From positions 2,275,151 through 2,339,150 of the forward strand of contig CAJINV010000007.1 in the NCBI GenBank assembly GCA_905178155.1: a stretch of 64,000 nt of DNA. Direction: 5' to 3'. Made by a program: the position numbers and the translations under genes. Under the pieces are notes generated by a model. The model saw only the letters and a program-made list of their open reading frames with translations. It was not told where the DNA came from and searched no databases. The DNA is from Amoebophrya sp. A120. Its lineage: Eukaryota > Protista > Dinoflagellata. Positions 16,179 to 57,120 of this stretch are shown in pieces. Each line of letters begins with the position of its first letter. Position 1 is the stretch's first letter.

Positions 16179-16304
16179 GTTTTTGGTATTCTTCGGAAAC
16201 TGGTAGAGAAACTCTAGAAACCTACTCGATAAAAGAAAATCGCAAGCAATAGTAAAAGTATACTACTACTGAGTCCACTAAGCTCTAAAAGCTCAAGGCG
16301 AGAA

Positions 16305-16519
16305 TGATAGAACGCAGATACTCAGAATACTATAGCCGTGATAGACTAAGAGCATACGCACCCGCTTCACTCACCTGAGTGGATTTGAGAGAGTCATGGC
16401 TCGGGGTTCTACTCCCCGGAGGTCATTCGTGTCATTTCGTGATCATCTTTCTTGTCATTTGGATCTCTAGCTTTGCTCTTAGATCTACAATGTAGGTCGT
16501 ATTCTGATCCTTCCCTACA
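16305..16519 (-). repeat. 5' LTR of copia element
   Basis: Direct repeat of 10627-10841 followed by TSD CTTAC. Confidence 0.95.
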
Positions 16520-24139: not shown

Positions 24140-25352
24140 TCAGCCAGATTGGAAGTCACCAAAAAAACCATCATCGTCTTCAAATGGATCTTTATCAGCC
24201 GTGTTGTACCCCATCGGCGCACCAGGCGGCGCCGCGATCCCTCCCCCTCCGCTAGGTGGTGGCGGCATCGCGAATCCTCCTCCCCGATTCGGACTTGCGC
24301 CACTGCTCGTAGTAGTTCCGACCAGCTTGTTTACTGTGTTGTTCGCTTTATTCCCACCCCCTCCGGGGGTCTTCAAACTTCTGATGCTTATCTTCTCCCC
24401 GGCTTTCAAACTGTAGTCTTTCTTCTCAAAATTGATGGAGGATGATGCTTCTGCAGATGATCCGCCCGCCGGTCCACTGGAAGCAGCTGTTGAGGAGGCT
24501 GCTGATCCACCTGAACTCGTACCTCTGAAATCCGTTAAACAGCAGTTGAAATCGAACGCGTCGTTCCGGTCTTCGTATCCTGTGCAAAAGTATCGTACTC
24601 GTATTACAATCATGCATTACAAATTTTTTTCTCAAGGTAAATCCGCATTACAAATTTAATTTCTCATTCTCATGCTGAGGAAACTTGTAATGCATTTATA
24701 CGAGTACGTGTACGATACTTTTGCAATGCATACTTCGAAGCCCAAGCCGATGTACGCCGTTTTCTTCGTTCCCGGGTGCACTTATAAAATGTAAAAGTGT
24801 CTGGGTCTGGAAGAGGAGAAGTTTGTCATGCACATTTTACATGATCCATGATGTCTCTGATGTATGAAATAGCATCACAGATTTATCGAGCGCGAGCGCC
24901 TATCGATGCGCGTCCAGCATGACAAATGCCCTCTCCGCGTAGCCAAATTTGAGTCCTCTATCTGCTCATGCAATGCAGATTTTTTTAGCATCCAAATGCA
25001 GCATCACAAGTTTGGCTCTTCCAGACCCAGACATGTTTGCAATCCATAGCACTACTCGCAAGACGAAATACCGGCTGGAGTCGACCGTTCGTTCAATAAA
25101 TTTCTCGTGGTCCCCGTGTTCGATGACCGATTGCAGGAACATCTCCTCCGTGGCCGGTTTGACCAGGCGGAGCACCACGTGCGGCCCCTTCGCAACCACC
25201 CAGACCTTGCCCTGCCAAATGCAGTTTTTCCACTCCTCCGCCCGGTGTCCGGCGGCGGTCGCGCGGGGCGGCACCTGGAAGGCGTTGACGTCGCGCCGGT
25301 TCAGAATCGTGTACTCGATCTGTTGTTCCTCATCGTCTTCCGAAGAGGCCAT
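24140..25352 (-). CDS. NECAP: NECAP / adaptin ear-binding coat-associated protein (~259 aa; exons 25352-25049, 24777-24733, 24570-24140)
   Basis: Spliced product VPPRATAAGHRAEEW...VDSSRYFVLRVV|HPGTKKTAYIGLGFE|DRNDAFDFNCCL...SLKAGEKISI matches the PHear domain signature; both introns are TIR elements. Confidence 0.9.
24576..24732. mobile_element. Introner/MITE-like element, family B (157 bp)
   Basis: TIR TATCCTGTGCAAAAGTATCGTAC / GTACGATACTTTTGCAATGCATA; perfect direct repeat CTTCG (24571-24575, 24733-24737); removal restores GLGFE-DRNDAF. Confidence 0.92.
24783..25048. mobile_element. Introner/MITE-like element, family A (266 bp)
   Basis: TIR core TGTCTGGGTCTGGAAGA / TCTTCCAGACCCAGACA; perfect direct repeat GCACT (24778-24782, 25049-25053); removal restores YFVLRVV-HPG. 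Confidence 0.93.
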
Positions 25353-26966
25353 GGCAAATGGCTTGTTGGGATTCAGAATCAATCAGAGGTGAAACACGTA
25401 TTTGAGATTTTGCGCTTCTTCTTGAAGCTACAGCAAACTGCTCCTGCAGCTGCGATAGATCGAAGCTCCTCGTCCTCGCTTCTTCTACTTATAGGTTCAA
25501 CCCTCCCGCTCGCAAACCTATGCCGGGGCACTAATATAAATGGCGGATCAACATCAAAGCTAGTAGGTGGCGTTGACAGTTCGTTGACCCCCGGGAGAGG
25601 CGGACGACACACACGGAAGCCATTGCTGCAGAATCGCTGGCTGCAACTGTTGATTTTTGGTTCGCAACAAGTAGCTGCGAGCCACCTCCATCATCCTCTT
25701 TTCATCTTCACTCAGGGCCAGGACGAACCGACACGGACGCAAACGCAAGAACAACGGACAAACCACAACCTGGCGAAACTTGTTTCCAAAAAACGCTTGC
25801 CAGACCCCGGCCAAAGCCGCTAAAGATAATAAGCGAGAAGATGGTATCCATATCGTGTGCGTTTGTTTATTTTTTTCTGAGAATTCATTTCATTTCGATC
25901 GTTTCTCTCTTTCCTTAACTTTCATACCAGATGAAGCCCCGCTTATGGCTCTGTTCCCAATATTGAAGATTCTGCTTCTGCATCTGCTTCTGCCCTCCTT
26001 ACGCAGAGAAAAAATCAGAAAAAAACTGCAAAATTGTGCCGACTTGATGTTGTTGATGTAAGTATTTGCAAGAGTTTGGAGGCCTCAGCGAATGAGCTGT
26101 TTTTTGTTCACAAAAAAATCATAATCCAACAGCAAGAGCTTGCTGTTATTCGTTATCGCGCAGAATAGAGCCAAGCACTGACAACTCTAGTGAGGGTGAA
26201 GGTTTACTTAGATTACAGCTCCCGAAGACAAAAACGCAAGGTCGTTGCATTTTTTCTGGCCCTTAGCTTTCCTTTGGTTGATGCGCTCATGAAGACTGAG
26301 CATTCATATTCAACCGACTAAGTATCATGTCGACAATTATTATGTGCCACGCGAACCATAGCTCGAGCCGCACCCGCACCCCCTACAACTAACGCAGAGC
26401 GCAACTTGAAGCTGCAGCTCGGTGTCTTGCTCTTGCTTCTGCTGAAGATGCAAGGTGCTGTAGAAGAACGATGCGCGGCCTGGATTGTCGGACGCATGAA
26501 TAATATGTTGCGCATTCTCGTACGCAAAAGCAGGCTGAATGTTGTACCAGGCCGTGAAGATAAATTATAATTTTTCCAACATGTAGCCTACACAAACGGC
26601 CTTGCTGCACCTGCACCAGCTGATTTACTTTACTACAAAGTGCGACGATGCCGCGTGAAATAAGAAAGTACGTAGATGCAGCAGAGTTTGTTCAGATGTT
26701 GAGCAAGTTAAAGTACAGAAGGTTCTTGCTTTCCGGCACTTGTAGTTGAAGATGTTTGAAAAAATCTATAGAAGTTGGAAGAAGAAGAAGATGAAGAAGA
26801 ACTTTTTCGAATTGATAAAGCGCAGCTCCAAAGGCAGGATATTGTTCTTGTACAGCATTAAGTGCTACTGCCTAGCCTAGGCATTGACATTTCTATGGTT
26901 GTAAGTTTCAGTTGGCCAACAGCTGTCCGAGCACATTAAAATTAATTAAATCAAGAAATCGTCCTA

Positions 26967-29900
26967 TTATTTTATCGCGACCCATCCCGGCAGCAGTTGC
27001 TTATTGGGCGACTTCGCAGCGCCAGCACCATCGCTCGGACGTGGCGACGCCCCGGGACTTACGGTCCCGGGTGGCAAGAGCCCCAGCTTCTGAATGTAGC
27101 CCGCTCGTATCTGCACCGGCGTTTTCATCCAGTTCGTGTCTTCGGACACGTCTACCACCTCGACTATCGGGTCAAAAACCTGAATGTGTGGCCCCAGGAA
27201 GGCACCGAACGCACGGTAGGGAAGTTTGTCCTCGTCAGAGGGGGACGCGATCGAAGTGGATGGGGAGACAGACCCCGATGCTGTCGTGCTCGGCACGGGA
27301 ATGGTTGTAGTGGAAACTGCATCGGGGTGTGATGTGTCTGGCTGCTGGAGCAGCTTTTCCCGAAGCATTTTCTCTTGGGAAGTCTTCGCCTGTTTTTCTT
27401 GCCTCTTCAGCATCTTGGCGCCACCCTTGTACACGACCAGGCCGATGAGAACGGTGAAAAGGGCGAACCTGGGATGTTTGAAAGAATGTATGTTCTTCCG
27501 GCGGATGTTTTGTCTTGTTCATCTTCGACCTGCCAGGACGACAAAAAGTTGTTATAGAACTGATGTGTCTGATGGTCCTCAGTCACGCGCTGGCCCCATC
27601 CATATATCTCTAAAAGCGACTACACCTGCTGGACCTGTATACAACTACTTCTAGGTACCAGTCCACCATTCGCATCGGCACCGCGGAGCTTCCCATGATG
27701 ACCGGCGACGCGAAGAGCACGCTGGTGATTGGCAACCGAGCGGCGTTGATAACGAAGTAAAAGCTGGCCGTGCCGTACTTGACGAGCAGCATACAGAGGA
27801 TGTTGTAGGCGATGTTGAAGGAGATGTACATCGTGGTCGCAAAGCCAGCGGCGTCGCACTTGTCGCACGGCCGCAGCCCCTGCATCCGGGGGAAGGTGCC
27901 GTCGTCGCAGTCGTCTTTCACGGTGTTGTATCAAATGTAAAAATGTCTGGGTCTGGAAGAATCTAAACTTGTGATGCTGTCTCTGGATTCGAAAAACATT
28001 TGTATTGCATGACCAGTAAGAGGAGTAGATTTTGTGCTCCACGGAGATGGCATTTGTCATGCGGAATAGGTATGAGGAAGCGCTCTAAAAATCTGTGATG
28101 CTACGGCATGCATCACAGACATCATGGGTCATGGAAAATATGCATGACAAATCTAGAAATGTTCCAGACCCAGACATTTTTACACTTGATATGTTGATGC
28201 CGATGAAACACTTCGCGCCGTCGATGAAAGACGGAATCATGTCGTTCAATGGGATTTGGCTGATATTTGTGTTGATGTACGTGTCCATTTACAAGTTCTT
28301 GTGTTCGCATCTACTTCCAACATGCACTGCAAACTGATCCCGCTCCGTGCTCTTATTGGTCTTGCTGTGCGTCAGGGATTCAGCAAAGTACAACGAGCAA
28401 TTCTCAAGATTTAGTACAATACATTCACAGAGGACCACGCGCAGCGGTGAATAAAAAGAAAAAGTACCTCGGCCCCAAAATCGGCAGAGTGTACAGCGGA
28501 CAGAGAACGAAGTTGAAAAGCCCCTGGAAAACGGCAACCCACATCTGGATCAGGTTGACCGAGAGGTTTGGGACATCCTGGAACGCGACTTCCTTGTATA
28601 TTGTGGACAGTGCAGTGGGAAAATTGCTCGACGCGAAAATCATGTTGAAAGTAACATTGTCACCGGAGTCCGTGGTAGCGGCTTGGGGCCCGATCTTCGA
28701 GACGGCTGGTTTACGTATTATGATGCAGTAACTAGTTCTAGTGGTGCCTAAAAATGTAAATGACTATGATATGATATTACCAATTCGCTAGTTGTATCAT
28801 GATCAACTGCACCAAGCAATCTCTTTACCAACGCCTCCGACTATGACTGCTGCGCCGAGGTACTGGTAAAGATGGAAGCGGCGTCGCAGCAGCAGGACCG
28901 ACAAAAGAATCGTCACGGGGATGGCTCCTTGTGTGAGCAACACCTGGGTGCCACCGGCGGTGTAGGCACCGCCGAGAACCTGAGCGGGTTATTTGAAGAC
29001 GAAGATACAGATAGACGTCAACATTACATATATTAAGTTGAAGCAAGCATCTTCTTCTTCAAGGGTGGGTGAACCTGAAGTAGACACAGTACGGGAGGTA
29101 CTCCTCCTGAATCTTTGAATCCGCCAACGACAACGACATGTACTTAGCTCCGCCTGCAGTGCCTGTGCCAGTCTGCTCAATAACAGTACTAGTTCTAGTT
29201 CTAGTACCATGGTCATCCCGGCGCAGGCATCGAGCAAGCCCATGACCGCCGTCTTCCGCTTAGGAATGTCGCCTCCCGCTTTCTGCTCCCACATCTTCTC
29301 CAGCTCGGTCGCAAAGTAGAAAAACGGAATGAACACTATCGTGGTCACGTTCGTGGTGAACCAACTGTAATTCGCAAGGGAAGTGGTCATCTTCTTGAAG
29401 TAAATCGTGTTCCCGGTCGCCATCAGCATGTAGCACCCGTACATCAGTGCTTTCTGCCAAGAACTGAGCTTTTTCCTGGACATCGGTGCTGCAGTACTGC
29501 TTGTGGTCTTGGTGGCACTTGTAGCTACCGCGCCAGCGCCACTATTTTCTACTTGTCTGCCGTCAAGATTTGAAACACCAGGTGGATGCACCGTGGCAGA
29601 TGTTTGATGTCCTCTATTAGGATTGCTCCGGTTGATGATGTTCTGCTGGTCAACAAAGAGCTTCCCGGGGCTATTGAAGTTCGTTTTGTTCGGAGAGGGA
29701 GGCTTGTTGTAGTAGCCTCCGAGAATCCCGCTATTACTCGCCGGACCTCCACCTCCGCCTGCAGTGGCCCAGGGTGGCTGTAGCGACGAGGTGGATGATG
29801 TGCTGTTGTTCCCTCCCAGGAAGTTGATTTGCTGTCCTCCGTAAAAATTGGCACTTATTCCGGGCGGCGTGATCAACGGCGCGGCCTGCTTCGACGGCGT

Positions 29901-32153
29901 GGTTAAGGACGCCTGTCGCTTGCTCGTGGAGGCTGACGCCGCTCCTGACCCGCCCCCCACCCCGCTCCCGTTGTTTGCGTCCGCAGAGGTTTCGCTCGTG
30001 CGACTGTCCTGCTGCTGCCGGCTCTGCACTAGTTGTTCGTACCAGGTCATCTTCCGGGTTCTACCCCGGCTGTTCGGCCTTTGCTGCTGCTTCTGCGGAG
30101 CTGCACCAGGCGGACCGCCTGTAGATGATCCGACCCCGCCGTCAGAAGGTTGCTGTTGTGGAGGTGCGCTTGTTGATGTAGAAGATGCTGTGGTCGCTGG
30201 AGGGTCGTCGTGTCCTGTCGTGGTAGTAGCACCTCCGATGGAGGTGGTCCGTGTTGTACCTCCTCCAATCGCTACAGGCTGGTCATGGGTCGAGAAAAGA
30301 AATGGACGAGAAGACGCACTAGAGCTCGACGAACCTCCCGCCCCGCCGCGGCCCATGATTGCACTTTGCGTGTACTGCGTCACTTTATTTTCTACTTTTG
30401 GCAATTGCTGGTCATGGTCTTCGTCTTGCTGCTGCCAGGGGGGCCCACGCTGCTCACTTGTTGTTTCCTTTTCATCTCCTGCTGATCTGGGACTTGTTCT
30501 CAGTCTTTCTCTATTACTCCCCCCGCTCACCTTCCGCTTTTTTTCGCTACTGCCGCGACCTCCAGAGACGTGGTCGAGATGGCTTCTCTGGGCCACCAAC
30601 GGATTCCCTTTAACTTCTCTGGTACCAACATCTACTTCCTGCTCCATGTCGTCCTCGTCAATGGCGCTGGGCCGCTTTTTCAGCAGGAGAGTGGTTGTGC
30701 TGCCTTTCGTTCCTCGCTGCGGAGTAATGACGACCACATCGCCCTCCTGCTGTCCTCTGCCATCCCGCTCGCCGTGAATTGGTCGTGAAGAAAGGTCTTC
30801 TGTATCCGAATCCGCCGACGACGGTAAAGGAATCATCCCTCCCGCTGCTCCTTCCACCCTTTCGTGATCCGTCCTTGCAAGAAGATTGGTTTGATGCTCT
30901 CCGGGCACCACTCGAGTCCACTGGCTGGACGCAGAAAGAGAAACGACGACCACAGGTGGTGCTGTGCTGCCTGCCGTGCTGGCGCTGTGAGAGTTAATGT
31001 CCTCTGTAGTTGTTCCAGGCCCGCGGCCGTCCGGAGGTCTGATTGCAGGATCAACATGATGGCCGCGCACGTCTTGATTCGAAGTACCTGCACATTGTTG
31101 TAGACTAAGCCCGTTCAACAACATCGGGCCATCGACATCACTAGGACCGCTCCCAACATTAGTTTTAGTACTCTGCGGCTGCAGCAAACTTGATGCAGCT
31201 CCACCTCCAGGAGTAGTTGCAAAGTCGATCCTTGTCAAGGGAGACGATTGTAGCTTCTTCAGCTTCGGCAGTCGTGCGGCCACAGTGCTGGTGCTGGAAG
31301 TGGAGGACCGGCCAGAAGGGGGCGAACGCTGCGGAATAAGTTTATTTTGACCCGTTGTAGAAGTGTTTGAATTTCTACCGGCTGTAGTGGTCCCAACTAC
31401 CGGGCCAGCAGAGGACGCCGGAAGTTGGACTTGCTGCAACCGCCCGGAGCTACGAGGAACCGCCACGCCAGGAAAGTGAATCGGCGAGAGGACGGCGAAA
31501 TGCGGCTGCGTTGGGCCTGTGTTCGTACTTGTTGTAATTGAACTACCCGTCCTGGGAGCTGGAACTCCTATCGTTGCCATGCTAGTAGAGGCGGCGGACG
31601 AGGACAAGGCTGGAGGAGAACGGATTTTTCCGGTAGAAGTTGTAGAAAGGGCAACGCCCCCTGCAAAAATACTATCCTCGCCGGTCGCCTCATGAGCAAA
31701 TATCCCTGCTCCAGCTGTTGTTTCTCGTCCCGCGGCCACCCCTATCTTAGAAGTCTCTTCGCCACCCGCACCGACATCTGACTGCAGAAAACGTTGTTCC
31801 ACTAGTGCCACCGTTGAAGATACTGAGTTCGTTTGAGCTTCAGGCGATGCTGTGCCGTCGTCCTTGTTAACACGACCATAACTCACCTGTTGTTTGATAT
31901 TTGGCGAAGCTCCTTCGGCTTCGCTGCCGAGAGACGGCGAAGTGGAACTGTATGGAGGATTTGATGTTTTATTATCCGCTAAGACATTCAAGTCTTGGCT
32001 ATAGCTGCCAGGTTGCGCGCGCGTGTACTGCCGTCCTCTGTGCGAGGAAGAAGATGTTGTAGTTGTAGCCGGTTGTAGAAGTAGTGACACAGGAGAAGGA
32101 GCTGCTGCACTACTAGGACACGACGGAGAGGGCTGCTCCTCTCCTGGTCCCAT
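26967..32153 (-). CDS. CRT-like (chloroquine resistance transporter family, DMT superfamily) transporter with long low-complexity N-terminus; exons 32153-29208, 28979-28829, 28705-28468, 28259-28192, 27923-27659, 27468-26967 (~1389 aa; start uncertain)
   Basis: Motifs GNTIYFK, MGLLDA, GGTQVLLTQ, RRRFHLYQYLGA, ALSTIYKE, WVAVFQ, GAKCFIGINT...C...CDKCD, FNIAYN, DW..L..VLIGLVVY typical of CRT/CLT proteins; four GT-AG introns and one introner; summed exon length is a multiple of 3. Confidence 0.85.
27929..28191. mobile_element. Introner/MITE-like element, family A (263 bp)
   Basis: TIR TATCAAATGTAAAAATGTCTGGGTCTGGAA; perfect direct repeat TGTTG (27924-27928, 28192-28196); removal restores CFIGIN-TVKDDC. 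Confidence 0.93.
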
Positions 32154-32668
32154 GACTTTTATTTTTGACGTTATATTATCTCTCCTTTTGATGTAAAGTT
32201 CAAAGTACGAACAAGCGGAAAAAAAAATGAATCTGCGGAGCGACAAATAATTGAAGGAAGAAACTTCAGCACTGTGATTGGAAATTTCACCAGCTCCTTA
32301 CTTTATTTATCGCCGCTCGCTCCCAGCTCCAACATCTCTCGTCTAGTAGTATGCACTTTTTCATCGCGTTTTTGCATTCTGTCAACCACTTCAAAGGCCT
32401 GTTTTGTCGTGTTCTTCCTGTGTGTGGCGCTCTCTACCAATATCTCGTGGCAATGGAGAAAAAAAAACACAGCAAAACTGGCTTCCATTGAAGAAAGACC
32501 GTCTACCAGTGTCTGACTCCGTTTGATGCTCTCATTGCCAACGCCAATGCTACCACCAAGTCCCCTCGGCCTTTTCTCTCGTCACGCACATGAAAAACTA
32601 GAAAAGTTCCGCGACTCTTGCAACAGCCAAAGAATGCAATGTATCAAGAAAATGCAAACGCAACCTTC

Positions 32669-32770
32669 AACAACATGCAACCTGAAGAACATGCGAGAAC
32701 CTGAACAACATGCAACCTGAACAACATGCAAGAACTTGCCTGAACAACATGCAACGTGAACAACAGCAAC
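32669..32770. repeat. Imperfect minisatellite, ~16-bp unit CTGAACAACATGCAAC, about 6 copies
   Basis: Repeated units visible directly in intergenic DNA upstream of the CRT-like gene. Confidence 0.8.
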
Positions 32771-33818
32771 GCACCAGGAACAGGAACTTCACCAGCACCT
32801 CGAATACTGTGCACCACTTTCGACGGTGTTCGTGTTGCCTGTCAACGGGGTCGGAGAGGCGATTCTTGATGTGTCTCTCAAAAGATCATACACAGGGGAA
32901 TCTTCAATGGCAGGGCGGGTTACGCCACAAAAAAGTCAAAGAGTAAGAGGGAGTGCAACATCATACAACCCAAACCAAACGTCTTTTACTTTTTTTATAC
33001 CTTCAGTGTTCTTCGTTCTTGGAAGGAAAAATGTTTCTAGTCTTTAATTTAGTAGATTTAGATATACAAAATTGGGCCACTTCAGCAGTCCTCTGTCGGG
33101 GGGCAATTCTTGGGCTGTGCTCTTTCGGGGTTCATGATCGCGAGTGCGATTGTATGAAGAACTACTTTTTATGCGGAAGCGCAGACAACTAGCCGCTGCC
33201 GCGCTACTTTTTGTAGAGGATACACAAAAATAGCTAAACTGTGTAACTCAAGTCGGAAATTGTACACGGGAGGGCACTCGTTGAGGAGGCCTCGCACTGC
33301 ATGTGCTAACTTGTAGATGTACAACTGAGAGGTCGTATTAATCTACGTACTAGATTAAGTGGATAAGCCTGGTTCCTCGCGAAAACAAAAGTGGGAAAAC
33401 GTCGCGACGAACGTGCAGAGGCAATAACAAGGGCATCACCGAAATAAGTACTTAACTTCAAGTTCAAATGCCAATGCGTGCTCTTGCGGGTAACATAAAA
33501 ATGTTAAGGTTGAAAAAAATGCACCAGCGGAAGTATGTTTGCTTGTTTGTATAATTCTCCCCCTCTTCATCCTCAAAACGAAAACACAACACCCGGGCCG
33601 TCGAGCAGCTGGGTTTTTTTGCTTAATAACTTCGTCTGCCACTGTCCGTGTCGGTGTCCCCGCCAACCGCAAGAACCACGCGCCGGCTCCGCCTGCGCTC
33701 TTTCGTCTTGTTGCGGATCTTCACCTTCAGCGAAGACGGTCTTCTATGAATGTCGTACGTTGTTAACGCTCTGCGGTCGGGATGAAGAATGTATATGCAG
33801 GCTTTTTCTTTTTCTGTT

Positions 33819-35879
33819 TCATCTTGGCGCTAGAAATACACCTTCCGTAGTTGTACCAGTTCCAGTGTCGACCTTCTGCTCCTCCAACGGACGAGGCTCA
33901 TTGGAATAATCTGCCACGGATTTGTCCTCCCCGATTTCCTCCGTGAGCCCATTGCGGAATTCCAGAATGAACCGCGAACCCAAGTCGTTCCGCAGAAACA
34001 GCACGGCTTCTTCCGCATTTACGATTTCATTTTCAGCTTGACGATCAAGAAGTGCATTTCGAAAGTTCTCCACTCCGACCTTTCTCGCGGCAATCAGCTT
34101 TTGGTTTGTCGCGGTTTGGTACTCCGTCAAAGAGTCGTAGTTGTCCCGATATTTCGCATACAGCAACACCCACCACCCACAGCTCCAGTCGTCTTGCTGA
34201 AAAGGAAATCCATTTTTCACGAGATGAGTATCCGCGGTCCTCGGGCCGTCGAAAGGGGCCGCTCCTTTGGTCGTTTCCTGCAGGAGCGCGTCCCCGAACT
34301 CTGTCGGGCCGAAGAAACTGTTATCGGGCAGCAAATAAGATCTGCTTCCACCCCCCGACCTGTCAAACTTCGTACTCTGGAACGCATGCTGGAAGACTTT
34401 CCGCCCGGTAGACCACCAAGCTCCCTCCTCATTGTACTTTTTTGTGAGGGCTTTCGAGTCGAGCAGTTGCTCCAGCTCAGCTTCTGCTTCGGTCGTCTCG
34501 CGTAGAAAAGGGTTCGTCTTTCGGTCCATGCTACCCGCATCGGTTCCCTTTAGCGCGAGACGCGAGGACTTCATGCCGTCCTCAACGTTGTCGCTGCCGT
34601 GGCTGTTGTGATATTCAACGGAGTAGTGCAGAGCGTGGGGAAATAAACCGTCCGAATCGGAGGTTCCGGAAAACCGGATCTGGATCCGAAAGACCACCCA
34701 ATGACCCGCGTTGCGCGTCAGTTTTTCCAGCTTGCCCTGCGCCGTTTCGGTCGGCAAGTTTTGCTTCAAGTAAACACCCCACGGAAGCTGGACCGGCAGA
34801 TACAGGGCGACAAAGTTCTTCCCCGCCGTGAGATGCTCTTTCAATTCTTGGATCGTACAGTGTCGGAGCTCCTTCTCGATTTTTCCCAGTTGGGCTTTCA
34901 GATGTTCCTTGAGCCCGGCTGCGCCGCTACGTGCGCTCGTCTCCCACCGCACGTGCGGAATCTCCTCGGACAGTGTGGCCTTGAAAAACCAGTGGTGGAA
35001 GTCTAGGAGTGCCTTTTTCAAAGCCTTCAATTCGCGAGAAATCTTGTTCCCGCCGATAGTACCAGTTCTTGGTGTATAATTACTAGCGCCGGATAGGAGG
35101 TGGAGTTGCTGTCGTTGTTGTTCTTCTGTTGGGTCCTCGTCAACGGCTGGGAAGATCATGGGAGGACTACTAACGATCATATTTTCGTTCAAGACCCCGT
35201 ACTTTTTTGCCAAAAGAAAATGGAGCTTTGGCTGCAACCCGGCGGAAGCAAGCGCCAGCTCGAGGAAACCCGGTTTCACCTCGCTATCCGTGAAGCCACT
35301 GCGGAGCTTTCCCCCAGAGAGGAGCTTTTGTTTATATTCGGCAATTTCTTGCTTCAGTGCGGCCTCAATTTCGCTCGTCTCCGTCTCGTCGAGGATAACA
35401 TCGAAAGCATCTTCTACTTCTCCTTCAACATCATCTGGAGACGAGGACCCATCTTCACCCGGCAGCTGGTCGTGCCCATCTATCTGCTCTTGTTGCTCTG
35501 CAGGTAGAAGTAGATCTTCAGGAGGAGTAGAAGTGCCACTCCCGCTGCCCTGTGACACAGTTGTCCTCGTAGTCGTACTGCCACTGGAATCGGACGGCGT
35601 CGAGGACGATAACACAGCTCCAACATGAGCAAGGTCCCCTTCCCGCCCTCCAGGCTTCTGCTCTCCTTGTTCCTCCGTTGGAGATTGTTGTGGCGCTGGT
35701 GTTGGGGCCGCTCCACCAAAGAGGGTACTGAGCCACATCGCGGAAACGCCGGTAATACCGGGCTCGTGCGCAGACAGGAAAACAATCGCCAGAGTCGACA
35801 CGAGAGTCACGACCGGCGGTGCAGCCCGCCTCGGCTTGGGATACATCAGAAAACTTGCCTTCATTCGGTGAGCCTCCAT
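33819..35879 (-). CDS. Ulp1/SENP-like CE-clan (C48) cysteine protease with N-terminal signal/anchor
   Basis: Single 686-aa ORF; LYLPVQ...GHWVVFRI...YHNSHG...QQDDWSCGWWVL fits His/Asx/Gln/Cys order of CE clan; hydrophobic VVTLVSTLAIVFLSA near N-terminus. Confidence 0.7.
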   Translation of the reverse strand: MEAHRMKASFLMYPKPRRAAPPVVTLVSTLAIVFLSAHEPGITGVSAMWLSTLFGGAAPTPAPQQSPTEEQGEQKPGGREGDLAHVGAVLSSSTPSDSSGSTTTRTTVSQGSGSGTSTPPEDLLLPAEQQEQIDGHDQLPGEDGSSSPDDVEGEVEDAFDVILDETETSEIEAALKQEIAEYKQKLLSGGKLRSGFTDSEVKPGFLELALASAGLQPKLHFLLAKKYGVLNENMIVSSPPMIFPAVDEDPTEEQQRQQLHLLSGASNYTPRTGTIGGNKISRELKALKKALLDFHHWFFKATLSEEIPHVRWETSARSGAAGLKEHLKAQLGKIEKELRHCTIQELKEHLTAGKNFVALYLPVQLPWGVYLKQNLPTETAQGKLEKLTRNAGHWVVFRIQIRFSGTSDSDGLFPHALHYSVEYHNSHGSDNVEDGMKSSRLALKGTDAGSMDRKTNPFLRETTEAEAELEQLLDSKALTKKYNEEGAWWSTGRKVFQHAFQSTKFDRSGGGSRSYLLPDNSFFGPTEFGDALLQETTKGAAPFDGPRTADTHLVKNGFPFQQDDWSCGWWVLLYAKYRDNYDSLTEYQTATNQKLIAARKVGVENFRNALLDRQAENEIVNAEEAVLFLRNDLGSRFILEFRNGLTEEIGEDKSVADYSNEPRPLEEQKVDTGTGTTTEGVFLAPR

Positions 35880-36336
35880 ATTCTTTCTTTATTCAGCGTT
35901 GTGCGTTTACAAAATAGTGAGAAGAGAAATGACGTAAAAATCCTGCGAATGTACGTCGGTCGCTACAACGGCGTAGGTGCTTATGTTTTTGTGGTTAGTT
36001 CTATAATTATTTTGAAAAAAGTGGCACAAAATATGATTCAAAACTCTACGGGGCTCGTATCTACTAAGTCAGTTTGAGTTCGATTACGATTGTCACAGAT
36101 TCCCTTCTTGCTTTCTCATCAATACTCAATTTGTATACTTTTTTCAAGAACAGGGATTCGGGGGCCGGAGCCGCTCGAGAATGAAATTAATCGTGGCGAA
36201 GACGGTATCTAAAAGATGTTTCCAAAAACAGAACTTCTGGATCTTTTGACCAATAAATGAAGCAAATGAGTAACATTCCATAAAAAAAAGGCTTCTGACA
36301 CTTTTTCGAAATGATCTTTTTGGATCGATGATTTAG

Positions 36337-36338
<2 letters not shown>

Positions 36339-36366
<28 letters not shown>
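36339..36366. repeat. (CTTT)7 microsatellite
   Basis: Direct reading; abuts a 16-bp palindrome CCATGCCCGGGCATGG (36367-36382). Confidence 0.85.
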
Positions 36367-36367
<1 letters not shown>

Positions 36368-49902: not shown

Positions 49903-51405
49903 GGTGATGCTTGTTATCGCGTTGCGCTAAACTAGAAGTTGATAGGATTTACGCAGATTCGGATTTTTTTTTTCATCGTGAGTACTAGTTGACCGGAGTT
50001 GTAATCTTAGTAGATAGAAGGGAAGCTGCGGGTAAGTACAACAACACTAGCATGCAGACAAGGGGAAAACACGTGTTGAAGAACTCCAATCTTCTATAGG
50101 CGTCGGGGGATACCGTCTCAAAATTGCATAGCTTCAACTTCAAGAGTTCTGTTCCTGTTACACATAGACTTTTGATGCTGATGTTTTTCTAGAACGTAAA
50201 AAATAAAGGGAGGAGCATCAGTAGTCTGCTGTCTTCCGTTATCGGGAAGAGAAGTTCAAGTTCTTCAATAAATTACGGCCGGCGGACGAGATTTAGCGAT
50301 TTACGACGACCACGAACGTGTACGCACGAAACCAGTACCGACGTTCTTTTCGAAAACAAAGGTTTGGTAATTGAGCACGAGCATCGCAACAGGAAAAATT
50401 CAGATTGCACCACGACATGACCGAACAAATAAGGGCCCACCTACGATGGCAGATGAAAACGACGGGGACCGATCTACTCTCAGCTCGCCACAAAACCGAC
50501 GCAAATTTTTGTACGTCAGAAGCAAGTGACAACTGAGCCTTCGTTCCCTGAGATACGCAACCGCATGACCGCAAATTCTTACTGTGGAAATTTGTAAACA
50601 ACGAAACAGCAATCGCAGCCAACCGTGGCATTGCAGCGGTGCTTTTCGCGCTCGTCGTCTTCGTGTATCGTTGGGGACAAGGAGCTACTTTTTCTTTACT
50701 TTATGAGCTTTTGAATAACAACTTCTGCTCTGGTTTGGTTTTCCATTTGTTTTCATTTTCAACGGCAGACGCGGAAGCCGGCAGAGCCTTTTCATTTTTC
50801 CAAAACAAGACGAAACTTCAAAACGGGGCGTCAATCAGAACAGGCTGCGTTTCTCAACACTGTGCGATAACATTGACTTATGCCTACACGAGTAGGCTGA
50901 TGACTTGTGTTCTCAAGGATAAGAAAAAGATAAAGAATATCAATCAAGTGGGGAAATAACATTATCTTCTTACGTAGGGTATTTTTCTTTTTACTTCTGC
51001 GTTTAGACCACCGCAGCTGGAGCTACACCGAAGATTTATGTTGAAACAGAATTTCAATTTTGTTTGTGAGTCTCTCTCTGTTCTTCGTCCACTATTAGTT
51101 CTCACTGTCATTCGTCTTCTTCTGAGCTAGAATCCGACACCCGCGCCACTCCGGACGACGAGCTGCTCGTGCTCGTCCTTCCACCCCTGCTCGCGAGCGT
51201 CGACCGTCTATGAACTATCGAATTTCTTATCAAACAAAAGAATAGTAGCCTCCATGTCCATCCTGTCCCCGTGTGCACAACAACAAGAAGATCACACCTG
51301 CATGACTCAAATTCTATCTCAGTACATCGAATAAATCGATGAACGTGCTCCTGTAAACGTATTTGAAGTCGGGCGCACGACGTTCAAGGGTAGAACTAGA
51401 AGCAG

Positions 51406-54400
51406 CTAGCTTCTTATTTTTGTTTTGATACTTTTCCGTTTCTTCGCACAGAGCCGTGTAAAGCAGACCGCCAAGCCAAAAGCGATGATGAGACAGCAAA
51501 ACATGCAAACCAAGCCGAAGATATCCACAGAAAAAAACCCATCCACATCCAATTTGTCATGCAAAAAATGGATGTGGATGGGTTTTTTTCTGTGGATAGA
51601 AGAGGAGCAGGTCGTAGAACTTTTTCTGCTCCTCCGCCAGCCGCTGCTCGTGCTCCTCCCGCAACTGCACAATTTGCTTCCGCATCAGCTCCTGCTGCAA
51701 ATCGGTGTTCTCGTGCTTCGCCAGATTCGCCGCAAACTTCACGTCCAAGAGGTCTTGCGCGATCATTTCCCGCTGCCGCTCGCCTTCCCGGAGCAGCCGC
51801 GTTTGCTCCGCGATGGACTTCGCTAGCTGCTCCGCCTCAGCCCCCGTGCCTGCTGATGCTGGATCTCCACCTGGATGCTGGTCGTCATGACTTACTTCTA
51901 GGGAAGCCGGAACATCAGCAGAAGAGCCAGCAGCTCCGGGCGTTGGAAGTTGTCCTAGAAGTCCTCTACTCTCGTCTCGTCCACTAGTACCAGCACCACC
52001 TCCTCCTCCTCCCCCGCCCATACTTCCGGTTGTTCCCCCGGGCGAGTGGGGTGGCGGCTTTGCCCACGAGGCCAGCTCCGGCCGCAAAGTGCGCCGGCGC
52101 ACCTGCAAGTCCCGAATGGTCGACCTGCGAACCTGCAGATCCTTCGTCAATTGCTGCTGGCAAGCAGTGAGCAGTTTCTGGCGGTAGAGCACCGCCTCGA
52201 GCCGCAAGTCGGCGTCCATCATGCGCCGCTTGAGTTCGAAAAAATTGGTGATGGTAAACGCGGTGGACAGCTTGTTACTTGACGTCATTATTCCTGCTCC
52301 TTGTCGGTTATTTTGCATCTCGTCCGTTGCAGAAGTTCCGGAGTTTGGTGGAGACAGAGCTACCCCTGAAGATTTATTGCGAACGAAAAAAACCGCGCGC
52401 CGTCGGATACTAGGAACCGCCGCCGTCCCAACATGTTGAGAAGACACAGCGGGCGACGATGACCTCCTATCGCCCAGCAAGGTTGATGTCACTACAGGCA
52501 CCATCAGGATCCCTGTTTCCTCGGGCCACCAGTACTTGTGTAGTACGTTCCCCTTCTGGCCCCAGCGCCAGGGGATCACGTACACAAGCCACGTCATGGG
52601 TAGTTGCTGGTTTCTTGTTTGTGTTGCGGAGGAGGTCTCGTCAACTGTAGTAGAAACTCCAGCCCTCCTTGTTCCTTCAGAAGACCCGGAAGAACTCGCC
52701 CCCGCGGCCAGGCGCTCCATCCGCTTTCTCTCCGCCAATCGGAGAGAAACCTGGTCTTCCTGAAAACGTTTCAGTGCCGCGTTGCGCAAATCGATTTCAT
52801 CTTCCACGCCACTCGTGGGGATGTGGTCGTCCCCCTGCTGTCGGCGGTGGTGCACCGAGGTGCGGAAGGTTGCATTTTTCACCTCCTCGGGAGAAGGTTC
52901 TTGTGAATCCATTCTTGAGCTACCGACTGCTGGTGGGCCTGCAAGATGAAAATTGCGATTCTTTCTTGCGTGTTGCTCCGAGGAGCTGTTTGTGGGTGGA
53001 GAGAGCGTACAGGCCTCGTCCAAGTCTTCCAGGGTCATCTGCAGATGTTGTTGCTTTTGAAAATTAGGCACGGACAATGAGAAATCCGTCACGTCGCCTT
53101 CAGAACAGTTGCGAAGGTCCGACTGTTCCTTGTTCGTGCCCGTTCCATTTCCGAGAAGGCCTACTTTCGGCGGCAGTGTATACCCTTCCTTTACCAGTAT
53201 CTCCTCGACACTGCGCTGCACTTCGAGCAGAACGTTTGCTTTGCTCTTCTCAGGCCGCCAAAAGAAAAACTCCGCGGTTGTGCGGAAGGGCGAGAGGGCG
53301 GAAGAAGTGCGTTGTTCTACTTGAGTCGTGTCGTCCGCAGGAGTCGCGCCGTCTTTGAAAAAAGGCACGTTTGGTCGTGGGCAGGTGTTTGTCAGGGCAC
53401 CACCTGCAGATGGTGTTTGATCTTGTAGCTTTCTTGTCGCCCCCCTCGCGTCTCCAGCAGCTCGAGCTCCTCGCTGTGGTTCAGAGGTGCTCGCAATTCT
53501 ATTTCCGTCGCCTGCCGATGTAGTTGCATCTTCGACAAGATTCATAGCCGCTTCGCCGGAGGAACCAAACGTCGAAAGTTGCTCTCTCCTAGCTTATATC
53601 AAATGTAAAAATGTCTGGGTCTGGAACAATGCAACTTGTCATGCTAAATCGGAATCATGTAAGAATCATGTGTGTTGCATGATTACCAAAAGCTGTCCAC
53701 TTTTGACCTAATCGAGAGGCAGTTTCTCATGCACGATAGGCATGATAGAACTCTCACAGAGTCTGTCATGCTATGTCCTTCATGCCAGACCTCATGGGTC
53801 ATGGAGAACCTGCATGACAAATCGCGCATTCTTCCAGACCCAGACATTTTTACATTTGATAGCTTCTTCCCGATCCTCCTCCAGCAGCAGTGCGGAGGGC
53901 CTAGGCCGCCCACGGTCACGGCTCGAGGCCTGATTCACGGCATTACCGCCAATGCTGAGCCTGCGGGACCGCCCTGACGCGGTTGTGCGGTGCGAAGATG
54001 AAGTGGATATGCAGGACCCAGCGGACGCTTGCAGATGGTCCGCGGACCCGGCCTGGTGTGGTCTCACCAAGCCCGACTGCCGGCGGGAGGAAACAGACGT
54101 CGCGGGCCTATTTGCTCCTGTGGTGCAGCCGCCGCCCTGCAACAGGTTCAAGTCGGCACCACCGCCAGCAACACCACAACATGAAGACCCTGCAAAAGCG
54201 TCCGGCACAATTGCCGCGAAGTCCAAAAATTCCTGCGAAACTTCCGGCACCAAGTTGCCCGGCTCCGTCGTCGAAATGGGGTGGCGGAGCTGAAATTTCG
54301 CATTGGCTGGGAGGTGAAGGAATTCCGGAGGTTTCGCGGCTTCGGAATGTTGATGAAGCGGAGGGGGCGTCGTGACGGGTCTAGTTGGCTCACCAATGCT

Positions 54401-57120
54401 CGTCGAGTCCGGGTCCACTTCTCGAATATCTGGCATGTTCTGTTGTACTTCTACACGCTCGGAGGTCCGATCGCTTTCATGATCGTTATCCACCGCACCC
54501 TCCACTCGGTCGTACACGCCACTCGCCAAGCCGCTTTTCCATTCCGGCGCGAAGGAGCTGGCCTTCGCTAAGCGAGAAAACCGCAACGGGATTTCCAAAT
54601 CGCTCTCGTCCAAATAGGTCGGCGGCCGCAGCGGAACCGCGGCCCTCCTGGCCCGCTGCATCTTGTTCAGCCAATTGGAGCCGCTGCTGGTCGTAGTGGA
54701 GGTAGGAGCCGCGGGCGTCGGGGCCTGAGGTGGACCCATGCCGCGATCGTTTTTTGCTTGTCCACTGTTCTGAGCCGCTGCGTGCGCGTTGGCGTTCTTG
54801 CCCTCGATCTCGGCCGCCTGCTGCAACACGCGGTCTTGGAACTCCAGAAATTTCCGGTGGTTTTTCCGCACCGCCGACTCGAGTCGGCCCTTGATGATCT
54901 GTTTCCAGAAAAAAACCTCGTCCTGTTCTTCCTGCAATGCATCCTTTCTCGCGTAGTCCTCGAGTGCGGCCTGCTTGTTGATCATGTGGTCCTCGCATGG
55001 GCCACGAGTCTGCAGCAGATCCTCAGTGCTGCTCGTCGGGTCGACGTTTCGTCGAGCGTCAAGCGCTGAACTTTGCCGATCTAGGTGTCTTCCACCCGAG
55101 TCAGTAAACGATTCGTCCTGCGGACAAAAATTTGTAGCAGATGGTCCTACTCCCGCGGGCGCAGCCAGCTGCGTAGTTGGTGTCATCGCATTGCCAGTCT
55201 TTTCGTTCGAACTTTTCCACAAGCCTGCCAAACCTGTCCCTGTAGGAACCTGCTTCTGAAACTTGTCGACACAACCCCGCGGATTCCAGGGCGGTAATCG
55301 CTTGGGGAGCCAAGGTGGGTAGTGTGGACTCTCGTTTTCCTTGTACGCTGCAATCGACGCGGTTGTGTTCGCAGTTTCGTTTCTAGCACCTTGAGCGTTC
55401 TTGAGCTGCAATCTGTTACCACCGATCTCACAATGCAATCCTGGCGCCGCCGCGGCCGTTTCTGTAGAAGAGCCACCACCCCCACCTCCCAGAGGGATCT
55501 CGGAGGCGGAACCGGAAGAGCAAGTCAGGTAATTATCCTGCGTTCGTTCTTCGTATCAAATGCAAATATGTCTGGATCTGGAAACAGGAAACTTGTGATG
55601 CAAGCCAGGGAATAGTACTGGGCGCACTGTCATACGTGGCCAAGCATGACAAGAAGCTTTTGAGCTGCTATGTGTAGCTTATTCCGCATGGCAGACTGCG
55701 GCTGCGCTTTTGCGTCACAGACATCAAAACGATCCTTTTGCACCTACGCATGACAGAGCTTCGAGTCATGTGCATGTCAGACAAGCATGACATATCTGGC
55801 AATCTTCCAGACGACCCAGACACATTTGCAATGCATAGTTCATCGTCCGGATCCTCGTCCGAACACGACGCGAATTCGTCTGCAGCGTGCTTCGTTCTGA
55901 GGTTCGTGGAGGTCGACGTCCACAAACTCCCCGGCGGGTAGCACTTTTCCGCAACCAACTCCCTCCTCGCACTGTTATGCGCGGTCAGTTTCACCTCCCA
56001 GTTCTTCGGCGGTTCCCGTTCCAAGTAGTAGTGCGACCCCGCGCCGAAGGGCAGCCAGGAGCTCGGGCCTCTGCAGCGAAACTTGTCCGACACGACGGCG
56101 CCGGTGGCAAGCTCGACCACCTCGCCGAGTCCGTCCCTCTCGCGGATGTCGTGCAGGAGAAGAACGGTAATTCTTTTCAATTTGCGAAACTTCAGGTCTT
56201 CGGCGGACGACGGCCACTTGCGCTCGGCGCCGCGGGCCTGTGCGTCTTCCTCGTCCGTGGGGAATTTCCAGTTCTCGATCTTTTCCCTCAAGGAAGAAGT
56301 AGGTGGCGTGGGTGCGAGGGAGGAACTCCTGCTGTCGTTCGCATTCACATTACGATTACCTCGCCCATCCTCGTGCCCGACGGCGCCATAATTTCCAGCT
56401 GCATTGTTCGGAAGTGGTAACAGACTGCTCTGCTGTGGTCTCGGTATGATTGATGCACTTGTTGCACCTGCTCCACCTGCGCTGCGCCCAGCAGGTCGTC
56501 GCGGCTGCAGGTCATGTGGATCATCCAAAAGAGGATGGGACGACCAAGAAGAGCTTGTCTTGGGCTCCGGGGTGCTGGTTCCATGATACCAGGTGTCGAA
56601 TTCATGGTCGGAGACCACGTACAGACCAGCGGCGCAAAGTTTAGGCTTGCTGTGGTCAATATCAACTGTAAAAATGTCTGGGCCTGGAAGATTTCCAGGT
56701 TTGTCATGCATATATATTTCGAATGAGCTATGATGCCTGTAATGCATGACCTAGCATGACAGATTTTTTGCGGGTATCTTGATGCCTATCCCGCATGACA
56801 AATGCTCTCTCCGCGGAGCAAAAACTGGACGCCTCTTGCTGCTCACGCAATACAGATTTTTTCAGATTCCAAAAATAGCATCACAAGTTGCATTCTTCCA
56901 GACCCAGACATTTTTGCAATCCATAGTCAATTGTCGTGGCTTGTTGCGCGGACGAGAGCGATGCCGGAGGCGCGATGGTTTTCTGCTGGTGGTGCAGCTT
57001 TCGCCCTATCGCCAAGGACGACCGATTGGTGAGACCTGAGAACGATAGGACTGCAACGCAAACGCAGTGGATGAAGAATAGACGAGCATGGATCAGCCTT
57101 CTACCCAAACAGAGAAGCAT
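51406..57120 (-). CDS. Large hypothetical protein (~1600 aa): N-terminal hydrophobic leader, low-complexity body, coiled coil, C-terminal TM; exons 57120-56926, 56654-55838, 55548-53862, 53591-51599, 51516-51406
   Basis: Five ORFs join in one frame when four TIR elements are removed (TTID|HSKP, DDE|xRTQ, EEA|RREQ, LLLF|GLVC); start codon uncertain. Confidence 0.75.
51522..51598. mobile_element. Miniature introner, family C (77 bp hairpin)
   Basis: Perfect 30-bp TIR TATCCACAGAAAAAAACCCATCCACATCCA around a 17-nt loop; perfect direct repeat GAAGA (51517-51521, 51599-51603). Confidence 0.92.
53597..53861. mobile_element. Introner/MITE-like element, family A (265 bp)
   Basis: Perfect 30-bp TIR TATCAAATGTAAAAATGTCTGGGTCTGGAA; flanks GCTTA / GCTTC; removal joins ORFs 53792..55438 and 51557..53545 in frame. 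Confidence 0.92.
55554..55837. mobile_element. Introner/MITE-like element, family A, diverged (284 bp)
   Basis: Degenerate TIR TATCAAATGCAAATATGTCTGGATCTGGAA / TTCCAGACGACCCAGACACATTTGCAATGCATA; flanks CTTCG / GTTCA; removal restores frame. Confidence 0.85.
56660..56925. mobile_element. Introner/MITE-like element, family A (266 bp)
   Basis: TIR TATCAACTGTAAAAATGTCTGGGCCTGGAAGA / TCTTCCAGACCCAGACATTTTTGCAATCCATA; perfect direct repeat GTCAA (56655-56659, 56926-56930). Confidence 0.92.

What the first reader, a model, noticed from the sequence alone, without database searches (positions are those of the whole stretch)
24783..56925. Family A introners occur in both orientations in same-strand genes
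Seen: the internal block TTTGTCATGCACATTTTACATGATCCATGATGTC...TAGCATCACAGATTT is at the left of the 24783 copy (similarly the 56660 copy) but appears reverse-complemented at the right of the 27929 and 53597 copies (55554 appears the same way). All host genes are on the minus strand. Inference: excision does not rely on a directional branch point or polypyrimidine tract inside the element; the symmetric TIR ends or the stem that juxtaposes both ends define the junction.
Basis: partly seen in the sequence, partly recalled or inferred. Interest (0 to 1): 0.8.

Follow-up and report, generated by a model that had tools for sequence, protein, structure and literature searches.

The report
Hairpin introner elements, spliced in both orientations
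Five copies of a small hairpin-forming mobile element interrupt same-strand genes in both directions, and transcript assemblies lack each copy exactly, so the cell likely recognises the element's paired ends rather than ordinary splice signals; this matches the introner elements already described in the parasite Amoebophrya.

Summary
Five 263-284 nt elements have ~30 nt terminal inverted repeats (TAT + 7 nt + AAA...) and 5-bp target duplications, and they interrupt minus-strand ORFs. Copies 1 and 5 are inverted relative to copies 2 and 3: internal identity is 0.64-0.78 in the matching orientation and 0.53-0.57 (shuffle level) in the other. Copy 4 belongs to a second subfamily with the polarity of copies 2 and 3.

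RNA-type contigs also skip canonical GT-AG introns. They skip copies 3, 4 and 5 to the base, as element plus one duplication. Their lengths fit the same removal for copies 1 and 2. No allowed cut register gives GT-AG, GC-AG or AT-AC. Precise removal restores ORFs of 1661, 1437 and 269 aa. Every copy folds into a hairpin that pairs its first and last bases.

In 128 further copies from a related assembly, 58 could be oriented against the inferred coding strand: 29 sense and 29 antisense.

The inverted repeat itself puts the same A-rich 5' end and T-rich 3' end on the transcript in either orientation.

The kind is already published as the Amoebophrya A120 introner elements (Farhat 2021). I did not find the orientation symmetry in print, so it is an incremental addition.

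The parts
24783..25048 (-). Family A copy 1 (266 nt, TA...TA). P-to-Q polarity is on the minus strand, i.e. sense to the host gene. 5-bp duplication GCACT at 24778-24782 and 25049-25053. Host is a NECAP/DUF1681-like gene.
   Evidence: RNA-type contigs of X3 and X4 join 24570 | 45 nt | 25049. The exon before the copy matches Pfam DUF1681 positions 1-89 and the exon after matches 104-155. The spliced ORF is 269 aa.
27929..28191 (+). Family A copy 2 (263 nt). P-to-Q polarity is on the plus strand, i.e. antisense to the host gene. Duplication TGTTG at 27924-27928 and 28192-28196. Host is a CRT-like transporter gene.
   Evidence: The X4 contig runs 27657-27923 | 68 nt | 28468-28705. The X3 and X5 contigs hold exactly 722 nt between 27466 and 29206, which equals 267+68+238+149. 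The ORF is 1437 aa only if the copy is removed. Pfam CRT-like.
53597..53861 (+). Family A copy 3 (265 nt), antisense polarity. The flanking 5-mers are GCTTA and GCTTC.
   Evidence: The X3 contig skips 53590-53859, 270 nt = 265 + 5, with 6 ambiguous bases. Removal is needed for the 1661-aa ORF.
55554..55837 (+). Copy 4 (284 nt), second subfamily, polarity of copies 2/3 by its subterminal motifs. The flanking 5-mers are diverged (CTTCG and GTTCA).
   Evidence: The X3 contig skips 55550-55838, 289 nt = 284 + 5, with 3 ambiguous bases. Subfamily and polarity. Because the duplication is imperfect, the 5' cut is limited to 1-4 nt upstream of the element.
56660..56925 (-). Family A copy 5 (266 nt), sense polarity. 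Duplication GTCAA.
   Evidence: The X3 contig skips 56655-56925, 271 nt = 266 + 5, with 6 ambiguous bases..
24576..24732 (.). A different 157-nt hairpin element (TAT-N7-AAA ends, duplication CTTCG). It is also removed from the NECAP-like transcript, 45 nt downstream of copy 1 in gene sense. A relative lies at 60401-60607.
   Evidence: The 45-nt gap in the contig record fits removal of 24571-24732. The Pfam profile is continuous across it.
51522..51598 (.). A 77-nt near-perfect hairpin intron with duplication GAAGA, in the same gene as copies 3-5.
   Evidence: The X3 contig skips 51517-51598, 82 nt, with 5 ambiguous bases. Fold MFE is -54.4 kcal/mol, z = -10.5.
51228..51430 (.). A 203-nt element with TATCAAAACAAAAA-type inverted ends. 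It is removed as 208 nt. Its imperfect duplication limits the 5' cut to 1-3 nt upstream of the element.
   Evidence: The X3 contig skips 51224-51431 with 2 ambiguous bases. Ends are shown.

Best explanation
These are non-autonomous inverted-repeat DNA transposons (introner elements) that landed in coding exons in either direction, and they are removed from the RNA to the base together with one copy of their 5-bp target duplication; the removal is likely guided by the hairpin that the two repeat arms form, not by GT-AG signals. Shown here: the elements have ~30 nt inverted ends beginning TAT and a 5-bp duplication. RNA-type contigs lack exactly element + 5 nt for copies of both polarities. No cut register is canonical. 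Predicted folds pair the first element base with the last. Orientation shows no bias. Inferred: the stem, or the identical terminal sequences it is made of, places the two cuts a few bases outside the helix. The imperfect duplications allow a 5' cut 1-3 nt upstream and a 3' cut 4-2 nt downstream, summing to 5, so the mRNA returns to its pre-insertion sequence. The enzyme is unknown. It could be a modified U1-less spliceosome or a separate structure-guided machinery.
For: Anatomy: TIRs and duplications. 114 of 128 further copies have a perfect 5-bp duplication, and the rest match at 4 (8 copies), 3 (4) or 2 (2) of 5 positions. RNA: X3 joints 53589>53860 (270 nt), 55549>55839 (289 nt) and 56654>56926 (271 nt); the same contigs also skip a canonical CT..AC intron at 59672-59819. 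Contig arithmetic for copies 1 and 2 agrees in X3, X4 and X5. The DNA-type run X1 keeps the canonical introns and runs into the elements (contig 25022-27952). None of the 7, 4, 7, 3 and 6 allowed registers of five non-canonical introns gives GT-AG, GC-AG or AT-AC. ORFs of 1661, 1437 and 269 aa appear only after precise removal, and retaining any single intron shortens them. Pfam DUF1681 continuity across copy 1. Hairpins: MFE -97 to -122 kcal/mol, z from -3.1 to -12, with element base 1 paired to the last base. Among 41 oriented copies, the MFE fold pairs the ends in 20 of 23 sense and 13 of 18 antisense copies, and stability does not differ (p = 0.13). Orientation against the inferred coding strand is 23 sense: 18 antisense in subfamily 1 and 6: 11 in subfamily 2, 29: 29 overall. 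Locus L004 holds both polarities in one minus-strand reading frame region. The duplicated 5-mers have no consensus.
Against: The RNA evidence consists of assembled contigs of one sample and one study, whose RNA nature is a guess by the tool. I infer it from the missing canonical introns. Raw RNA runs of the same species label gave 4, 2 and 0 reads, so no lariat, circle or efficiency data exist. Copies 1 and 2 are supported by length arithmetic, not by listed joints; the joint table was filled with repeat joints from X1. Coding-strand calls in the 141 loci are computational, using a codon model trained on three window genes. Only 60 of 128 copies got a call. A plain open-frame control did not discriminate: 55 of 73 open with +5 nt removed against 48-51 with frame-breaking removals. 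The stem is predicted, not probed. The repeat arms also supply fixed terminal sequences, so sequence and structure recognition are not separated.
Confidence: 0.72

Rival explanations
1. A spliceosome (possibly U1-less) reads the terminal sequences of the repeat arms as splice signals (A-rich UAUCAAAUGUAAAA at the 5' end, U-rich CAUUUUUACAUUUGAUA at the 3' end). The hairpin is only a by-product of the transposon's inverted repeats.
For: The repeat gives the same 5' and 3' terminal sequences in both orientations. Positions 1-3, 6, 8, 9 and 11-13 of the arms are nearly invariant at both ends in 60 copies. Farhat 2021 (sections read) found nearly all spliceosomal protein subunits (six of 89 undetectable) and most snRNAs but no U1.
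Against: Unrelated element families in the same genes share only the TAT-N7-AAA outline, yet they are removed in the same way (77-nt and 203-nt elements). The TATGGATTGC end variant occurs at the gene-sense 5' end in 9 of 60 copies and at the 3' end in 19 of 60, so the outer 10 nt are not a fixed directional signal. No AG or GT is available in any register.
Confidence: 0.2
2. The elements are excised from DNA or are absent from an expressed allele (insertion polymorphism), so the element-free contigs do not reflect RNA processing.
For: Cut-and-paste transposons do excise. The contigs' RNA nature is only a guess by the tool.
Against: The same contigs lack canonical GT-AG introns that the DNA-type run retains. 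All eight hairpin introns checked in three genes would have to be polymorphic at once. Transposon excision normally leaves both duplication copies or a footprint, whereas here exactly one copy remains. Farhat 2021 report tens of thousands of such RNA-seq-validated introns.
Confidence: 0.04
3. Ordinary GT-AG splicing uses cryptic sites such as AT|GTAAAA inside the repeat arm and an AG in or after the duplication.
For: By my hand reading of the sequences, such sites would keep the reading frame in copies 3 and 5, adding 9 and 27 nt respectively.
Against: The contig joints lie at the duplication, not at those sites, and no extra 9 or 27 nt are present. No register is GT-AG.
Confidence: 0.02

Closest known systems
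Introner elements (IEs) among the non-canonical introns of Amoebophrya sp. A120 (Farhat et al. 2021, BMC Biol, PMC7789003; abstract, sections 10-12 and 16, and supplement legends read)
   Same: Non-canonical borders, inverted repeats at the intron ends predicted to form a hairpin that joins the exon borders, 5-bp direct repeats overlapping the borders, and thousands of copies in families with no transposase inside. The A120-specific repeat outline 'TAT, seven variable bases, at least three A' fits every element here. Co-oriented gene blocks and a genome of about 100 Mb also fit.
   Different: The paper gives repeats of 8-20 nt, whereas here the arms pair over ~30-45 nt. In the passages and legends I saw it does not analyse element orientation relative to the gene. 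Its figures S19-S25 and Table S7 were not visible to me. That the window is from this organism is inferred, not shown by a named record.
Nonconventional introns of euglenids (Milanowski 2014/2016 seen in listing only; review PMC11282704 passages; Euglena splicing code PMC12501133 passages)
   Same: Variable non-canonical borders, short direct repeats that make the border ambiguous, terminal inverted repeats that bring the ends together, and a suspected MITE origin. Cuts lie at set distances outside the pairing motif.
   Different: Euglena needs a CAG...CTG-type pairing motif with spacers of 3 nt (5') and 5-6 nt (3'). Here the helix starts at TAT/ATA and the two spacers sum to 5. The lineage is different: the host genes here include an alveolate-type CRT-like transporter. 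Circular excision products are shown in Euglena and are untested here.
Canonical introners of Aureococcus anophagefferens and Polarella glacialis (Roy et al. 2020 preprint 10.1101/2020.10.14.339549, passages read)
   Same: DNA-transposon-derived introns with duplications. [quoted passage not shown]
   Different: Those use GT/GC/GA-AG splice sites carried by the element or recruited from the duplication, and they show an orientation bias in all classes. Here no canonical site exists in any register and the orientation ratio is 29:29.
[quoted passage not shown]
   Same: Short length (about 250-290 nt), terminal inverted repeats, a fixed-length 5-bp target duplication (114 of 128 perfect), many copies, and no coding capacity.
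   Different: MITEs are not normally removed to the base from mRNA. The autonomous partner and superfamily are not identified here.

Membership tests
Amoebophrya-type introner elements (Farhat 2021) | Intron removed from RNA with non-canonical (non GT-AG) borders | tested here: met
   Joints. All allowed registers are listed and none is GT-AG, GC-AG or AT-AC.
Amoebophrya-type introner elements (Farhat 2021) | Inverted repeats at both intron ends able to form a hairpin that joins the exon borders | tested here: met
   In the folds, element base 1 pairs with the last base in all five copies.
Amoebophrya-type introner elements (Farhat 2021) | Direct repeats of 3-5 nt overlapping the exon/intron borders | tested here: met
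   5-bp repeats flank all five copies. They are perfect in 114 of 128 further copies.
Amoebophrya-type introner elements (Farhat 2021) | A120-type repeat motif: TAT, seven less conserved bases, then at least three A | tested here: met
   Position counts over 60 copies. Other families in the window are listed.
Amoebophrya-type introner elements (Farhat 2021) | Host organism is Amoebophrya | not testable with these tools
   No genome is held for the window, and run and organism names are coded. Only indirect fits are available: motif, ~106 Mb of DNA contigs, co-oriented genes.
Non-autonomous TIR DNA transposon (MITE) | Terminal inverted repeats, fixed-length target duplication, many copies, no transposase | tested here: met
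   The elements are 240-481 nt long, most 251-272.
Non-autonomous TIR DNA transposon (MITE) | Evidence of mobility (empty sites, autonomous partner) | not tested
   No genome or raw DNA reads were available for empty-site or transposase searches.
Euglenid nonconventional introns | CAG/CTG-type pairing motif at +4..+6 and -8..-6, with spacers of 3 nt and 5-6 nt | tested here: not met
   The ends read TATCAA.../...TTGATA and the spacers sum to 5. The rule is taken from PMC12501133 and PMC11282704.
Euglenid nonconventional introns | Excised as full-length circular RNA after the conventional introns | not testable with these tools
   Only contigs were informative. The raw RNA runs gave 4, 2 and 0 reads.
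Canonical introners / U2-type spliceosomal introns | GT/GC-AG (or AT-AC) terminal dinucleotides | tested here: not met

The most novel reading that the evidence does not exclude
Excision is carried out by a structure-measuring cut-and-join machinery that is blind to element polarity. It cuts 1-3 nt before and 4-2 nt after any long helix that starts TAT...ATA and religates the exons. This would be a transposon-neutralising RNA repair system that arose in a parasitic alveolate independently of the euglenid one and of the spliceosome's splice-site code.
Probability: 0.3. Interest if true: 0.85.

Novelty: already known. Interest (0 to 1): 0.4.

Why it matters
How Amoebophrya-type non-canonical introns are recognised is an open question. 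Farhat 2021 raised it and no later mechanistic paper turned up. This report adds three constraints for any model. One family is removed precisely in both polarities. It shows no orientation bias (29:29). Its target duplications have no consensus. The signal must therefore lie in the paired repeat arms, not in the interior or in the target. The report also yields a testable cut register: 5' cut 1-3 nt outside the helix, with the two offsets summing to 5. For annotation, gene finders must remove such elements on either strand or they will split genes such as the 1661-aa ORF here.

Tried and rejected
1. Cryptic GT-AG splicing inside the repeat arm would stay in frame for copies 3 and 5. It is rejected by the contig joints.

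2. In the window, the end variant TATGSATTGCAAA sits at the gene-sense 5' end of copies 1, 4 and 5 and of the 24576 and 60401 elements, and never at a 3' end. I suspected a directional 5' signal. It is rejected: in 60 strand-called copies the variant is at the 5' end in 9 and at the 3' end in 19 (Fisher p = 0.05, in the opposite direction). It follows the element's own P end.

3. An open-frame continuity test in the loci was not discriminating. An open frame of at least 40 codons on both sides was found in 55 of 73 copies with +5 nt removed, against 48-51 of 73 with frame-breaking removals. I replaced it with a codon-usage strand call, checked on untrained window positions (177 minus, 1 plus, 93 no call).

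4. No RNA holder was listed for the stretch. Raw RNA runs X9, X10 and X11 of the same species label laid 4, 2 and 0 reads, so nothing can be said on lariats, circles or efficiency.

5. No whole genome is held for the window, so no genome-wide count could be made in the window's own assembly. The second lay included the DNA run X1, whose repeat joints filled the joint table, so the joints for copies 1 and 2 rest on record arithmetic.

6. None of the 141 loci overlaps unique window sequence. Only the elements match, at 75-90% identity. Whether that assembly is the same organism is therefore not shown.

7. Rfam gathering scan and tRNA scan of the window gave 0 hits.

8. Earlier-findings look-ups by place and by sequence returned nothing.

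I used exon-by-exon references instead.

10. Literature limits. For Farhat 2021 only the supplement legends were visible, not figures S19-S25 or Table S7, which may bear on orientation. For Roy et al. only the 2020 preprint passages were read. Huff et al. 2016 was not read and is known to me only through the preprint's remark on Aureococcus. 'Orientation not in print for Amoebophrya' rests on searches and on finds 20, 25, 26 and 36.
Full report
**What is there**

The window holds five copies of one repeat, at 24783-25048, 27929-28191, 53597-53861, 55554-55837 and 56660-56925. Each begins TA and ends TA. Each carries inverted ends of about 30 nt, of the type TATCAAATGTAAAAATGTCTGGGTCTGGAA (D3 and I7-I11; one search finds 8 arm matches where shuffles expect 0). 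Each is flanked by a 5-bp direct repeat.

**Orientation**

- With 34 nt trimmed from each end, copies 1 and 5 align forward (0.73), and so do copies 2 and 3 (0.70).
- The two pairs align to each other only as reverse complements (0.64-0.78).
- The wrong orientation gives 0.53-0.57, the level of shuffled sequence (alignment).
- The interior of copy 4 is not alignable to the others. It belongs to a second subfamily, found again in the related loci. Its subterminal motifs give it the polarity of copies 2 and 3.

**Host strand**

All five copies interrupt long minus-strand ORFs. Canonical introns in the same transcripts read CT..AC on the plus strand. A codon-usage strand call on untrained parts of the window gave 177 minus, 1 plus and 93 no call out of 271 positions.

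**RNA evidence**

No run is on record as an RNA holder of this stretch, and three raw RNA runs of the same species label gave almost no reads. Runs X3-X5 come from one sample of one study and are kept as contigs. I take them to be RNA-derived for two reasons. Their contigs skip canonical GT-AG introns (59672-59819, 27467-27656, 28260-28467 and others). The DNA-type run X1 has continuous contigs across those same introns and into the repeats.

In X3 the joints are as follows:
- 53589>53860 skips 270 nt, which is 265 + 5.
- 55549>55839 skips 289 nt, which is 284 + 5.
- 56654>56926 skips 271 nt, which is 266 + 5.
- The ambiguous bases number 6, 3 and 6 respectively.

For copy 1, the X3 and X4 contigs join 24570 to 25049 with 45 nt between. 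This is exactly the micro-exon 24733-24777 that is left when copy 1 plus one duplication and a neighbouring 157-nt hairpin element plus its duplication are removed.

For copy 2, the X4 contig runs 27657-27923, then 68 nt, then 28468. The X3 and X5 contigs hold 722 nt between 27466 and 29206, which equals 267+68+238+149.

Both polarities are therefore removed precisely.

**Consequences for the genes**

- Precise removal gives a 1661-aa ORF over 50700-57500. The unspliced region gives fragments of 360, 587 and 678 aa.
- It also gives a 1437-aa CRT-like transporter and a 269-aa NECAP-like protein. Retaining any single intron shortens the ORF.
- By reference-only Pfam scans, the exon before copy 1 covers DUF1681 positions 1-89 and the exon after the second element covers positions 104-155. 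This leaves 14 profile positions for the 15-codon micro-exon.

**No canonical signals**

I listed every register allowed by the ambiguous bases for five RNA-supported hairpin introns. None gives GT-AG, GC-AG or AT-AC. The duplicated 5-mers of 57 strand-called copies show no consensus, so the target cannot supply the signal.

**Structure**

Gene-sense RNA of every copy folds into a long hairpin (MFE -97 to -122 kcal/mol; z from -3.1 to -12 against shuffles). The first element base pairs with the last, which places the two duplication copies side by side.

**Cut register**

Where the two duplication copies differ, the retained bases limit the cut:
- Copy 3 allows a 5' cut at most 4 nt upstream of the element.
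- Copy 4 allows 1-4 nt.
- The 203-nt element allows 1-3 nt.

This is my reading. If one rule holds for all, the 5' cut is 1-3 nt before the helix and the 3' cut is 4-2 nt after it.

**More copies**

The results were:
- The loci hold 128 distinct complete copies. Of these, 114 have perfect 5-bp duplications; 8, 4 and 2 copies match at 4, 3 and 2 of 5 positions.
- 95 copies could be oriented against the window copies, and 31 of the other 33 against copy 4.
- 60 of the 128 got a coding-strand call.
- Among copies with both an orientation and a strand call, subfamily 1 is 23 sense : 18 antisense (p = 0.53). At stricter thresholds the counts are 15:13 and 8:9.
- Subfamily 2 is 6 sense : 11 antisense (p = 0.33).
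- The total is 29:29.
- Locus L004 carries both polarities beside minus-strand coding sequence.
- Hairpin stability does not differ between polarities (p = 0.13).

These strand calls are computational. No RNA was laid on these loci, and the loci share only the element with the window.

**A lead that failed**

In the window the variant end TATGSATTGCAAA always lies at the gene-sense 5' end. In the larger sample it lies at the 5' end in 9 of 60 copies and at the 3' end in 19 of 60. It follows the element's own polarity. It is therefore not a directional splice signal, which strengthens the orientation-independence reading.

**Comparison with what is known**

Farhat et al. 2021 (PMC7789003; sections read, supplement legends) describe exactly this kind in Amoebophrya:
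- More than 60% of introns are non-canonical.
- A subset are 'introner elements' with inverted repeats that form a hairpin joining the exon borders, and with direct repeats of 3-5 nt (5 bp in their example).
- They report 29,850 repeated introns in strain A120.
- They describe an A120 repeat motif of 'TAT, seven less conserved nucleotides, at least three A', which every element here fits.
- U1 snRNA is missing.

In the text I could see, orientation is discussed only for genes, not for elements. Gozashti et al. 2025 (PMC12130899, passages) require 5'-to-5' alignment when defining introner families, which would split or drop two-orientation families. Intron creation in either orientation is in print for Aureococcus and several Polarella classes, but with canonical splice sites and with an orientation bias (preprint 10.1101/2020.10.14.339549, passages). 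Euglenid nonconventional introns work similarly but use a different pairing motif and different spacers. Earlier notes of this scan report like elements in other dinoflagellate genomes. I did not test those.

**Verdict**

The repeat arms themselves give the transcript a constant A-rich 5' end and a constant U-rich 3' end in either orientation. Only interior signals are excluded.

The kind of element and the hairpin model are already published. The contribution here is the orientation symmetry (precise removal of both polarities, 29:29), the lack of a target consensus, and a candidate cut register. The machinery remains unknown.

Noticed in passing
window 24576-24732 and 60401-60607: A second hairpin-element family (157 and 207 nt; ends TATCC[TC]GTGCAAAAG and TAT[GT]CATTGCAAAAG; duplications CTTCG and GGACT). 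The first copy is removed from the NECAP-like transcript only 45 nt from family A copy 1, which leaves a 15-codon micro-exon.
   Followed up: partly
window 51517-51598: An 82-nt intron that is almost entirely one perfect hairpin (77-nt element, 29-nt arms, duplication GAAGA). It may mark the lower size limit for this excision route.
   Followed up: partly
window 3958-4279: A 322-nt element with 36-nt inverted ends (TATCAAAAGGAAAAATCCCCCC...). It sits in minus-strand coding sequence by the codon score. No RNA was laid on it.
   Followed up: no
window 10627-10841 and 16305-16519: A 215-nt direct repeat, 94% identical, in AT-rich and apparently intergenic DNA. It has no Rfam or tRNA match. The DNA run shows many variant contigs across 14071-16429.
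   Followed up: partly
window 18863-19296 and 22732-23159: Three colinear direct repeats at 70-73% identity, spaced about 3866 nt apart (D4, D6, D8). They look like two diverged tandem gene copies.
   Followed up: no
window 24006-25339 and 27341-28674 (run X1): The summed contig word depth of the DNA-type run is 25,000-88,000 in bins holding the elements, against 26-50 in single-copy bins. The tool warns that this is not a copy number, but it shows the families are very highly repeated.
   Followed up: no
loci L001-L141: Many loci carry two to four family copies within 3 kb (for example L004 and L076), so single genes are densely loaded with these elements.
   Followed up: partly
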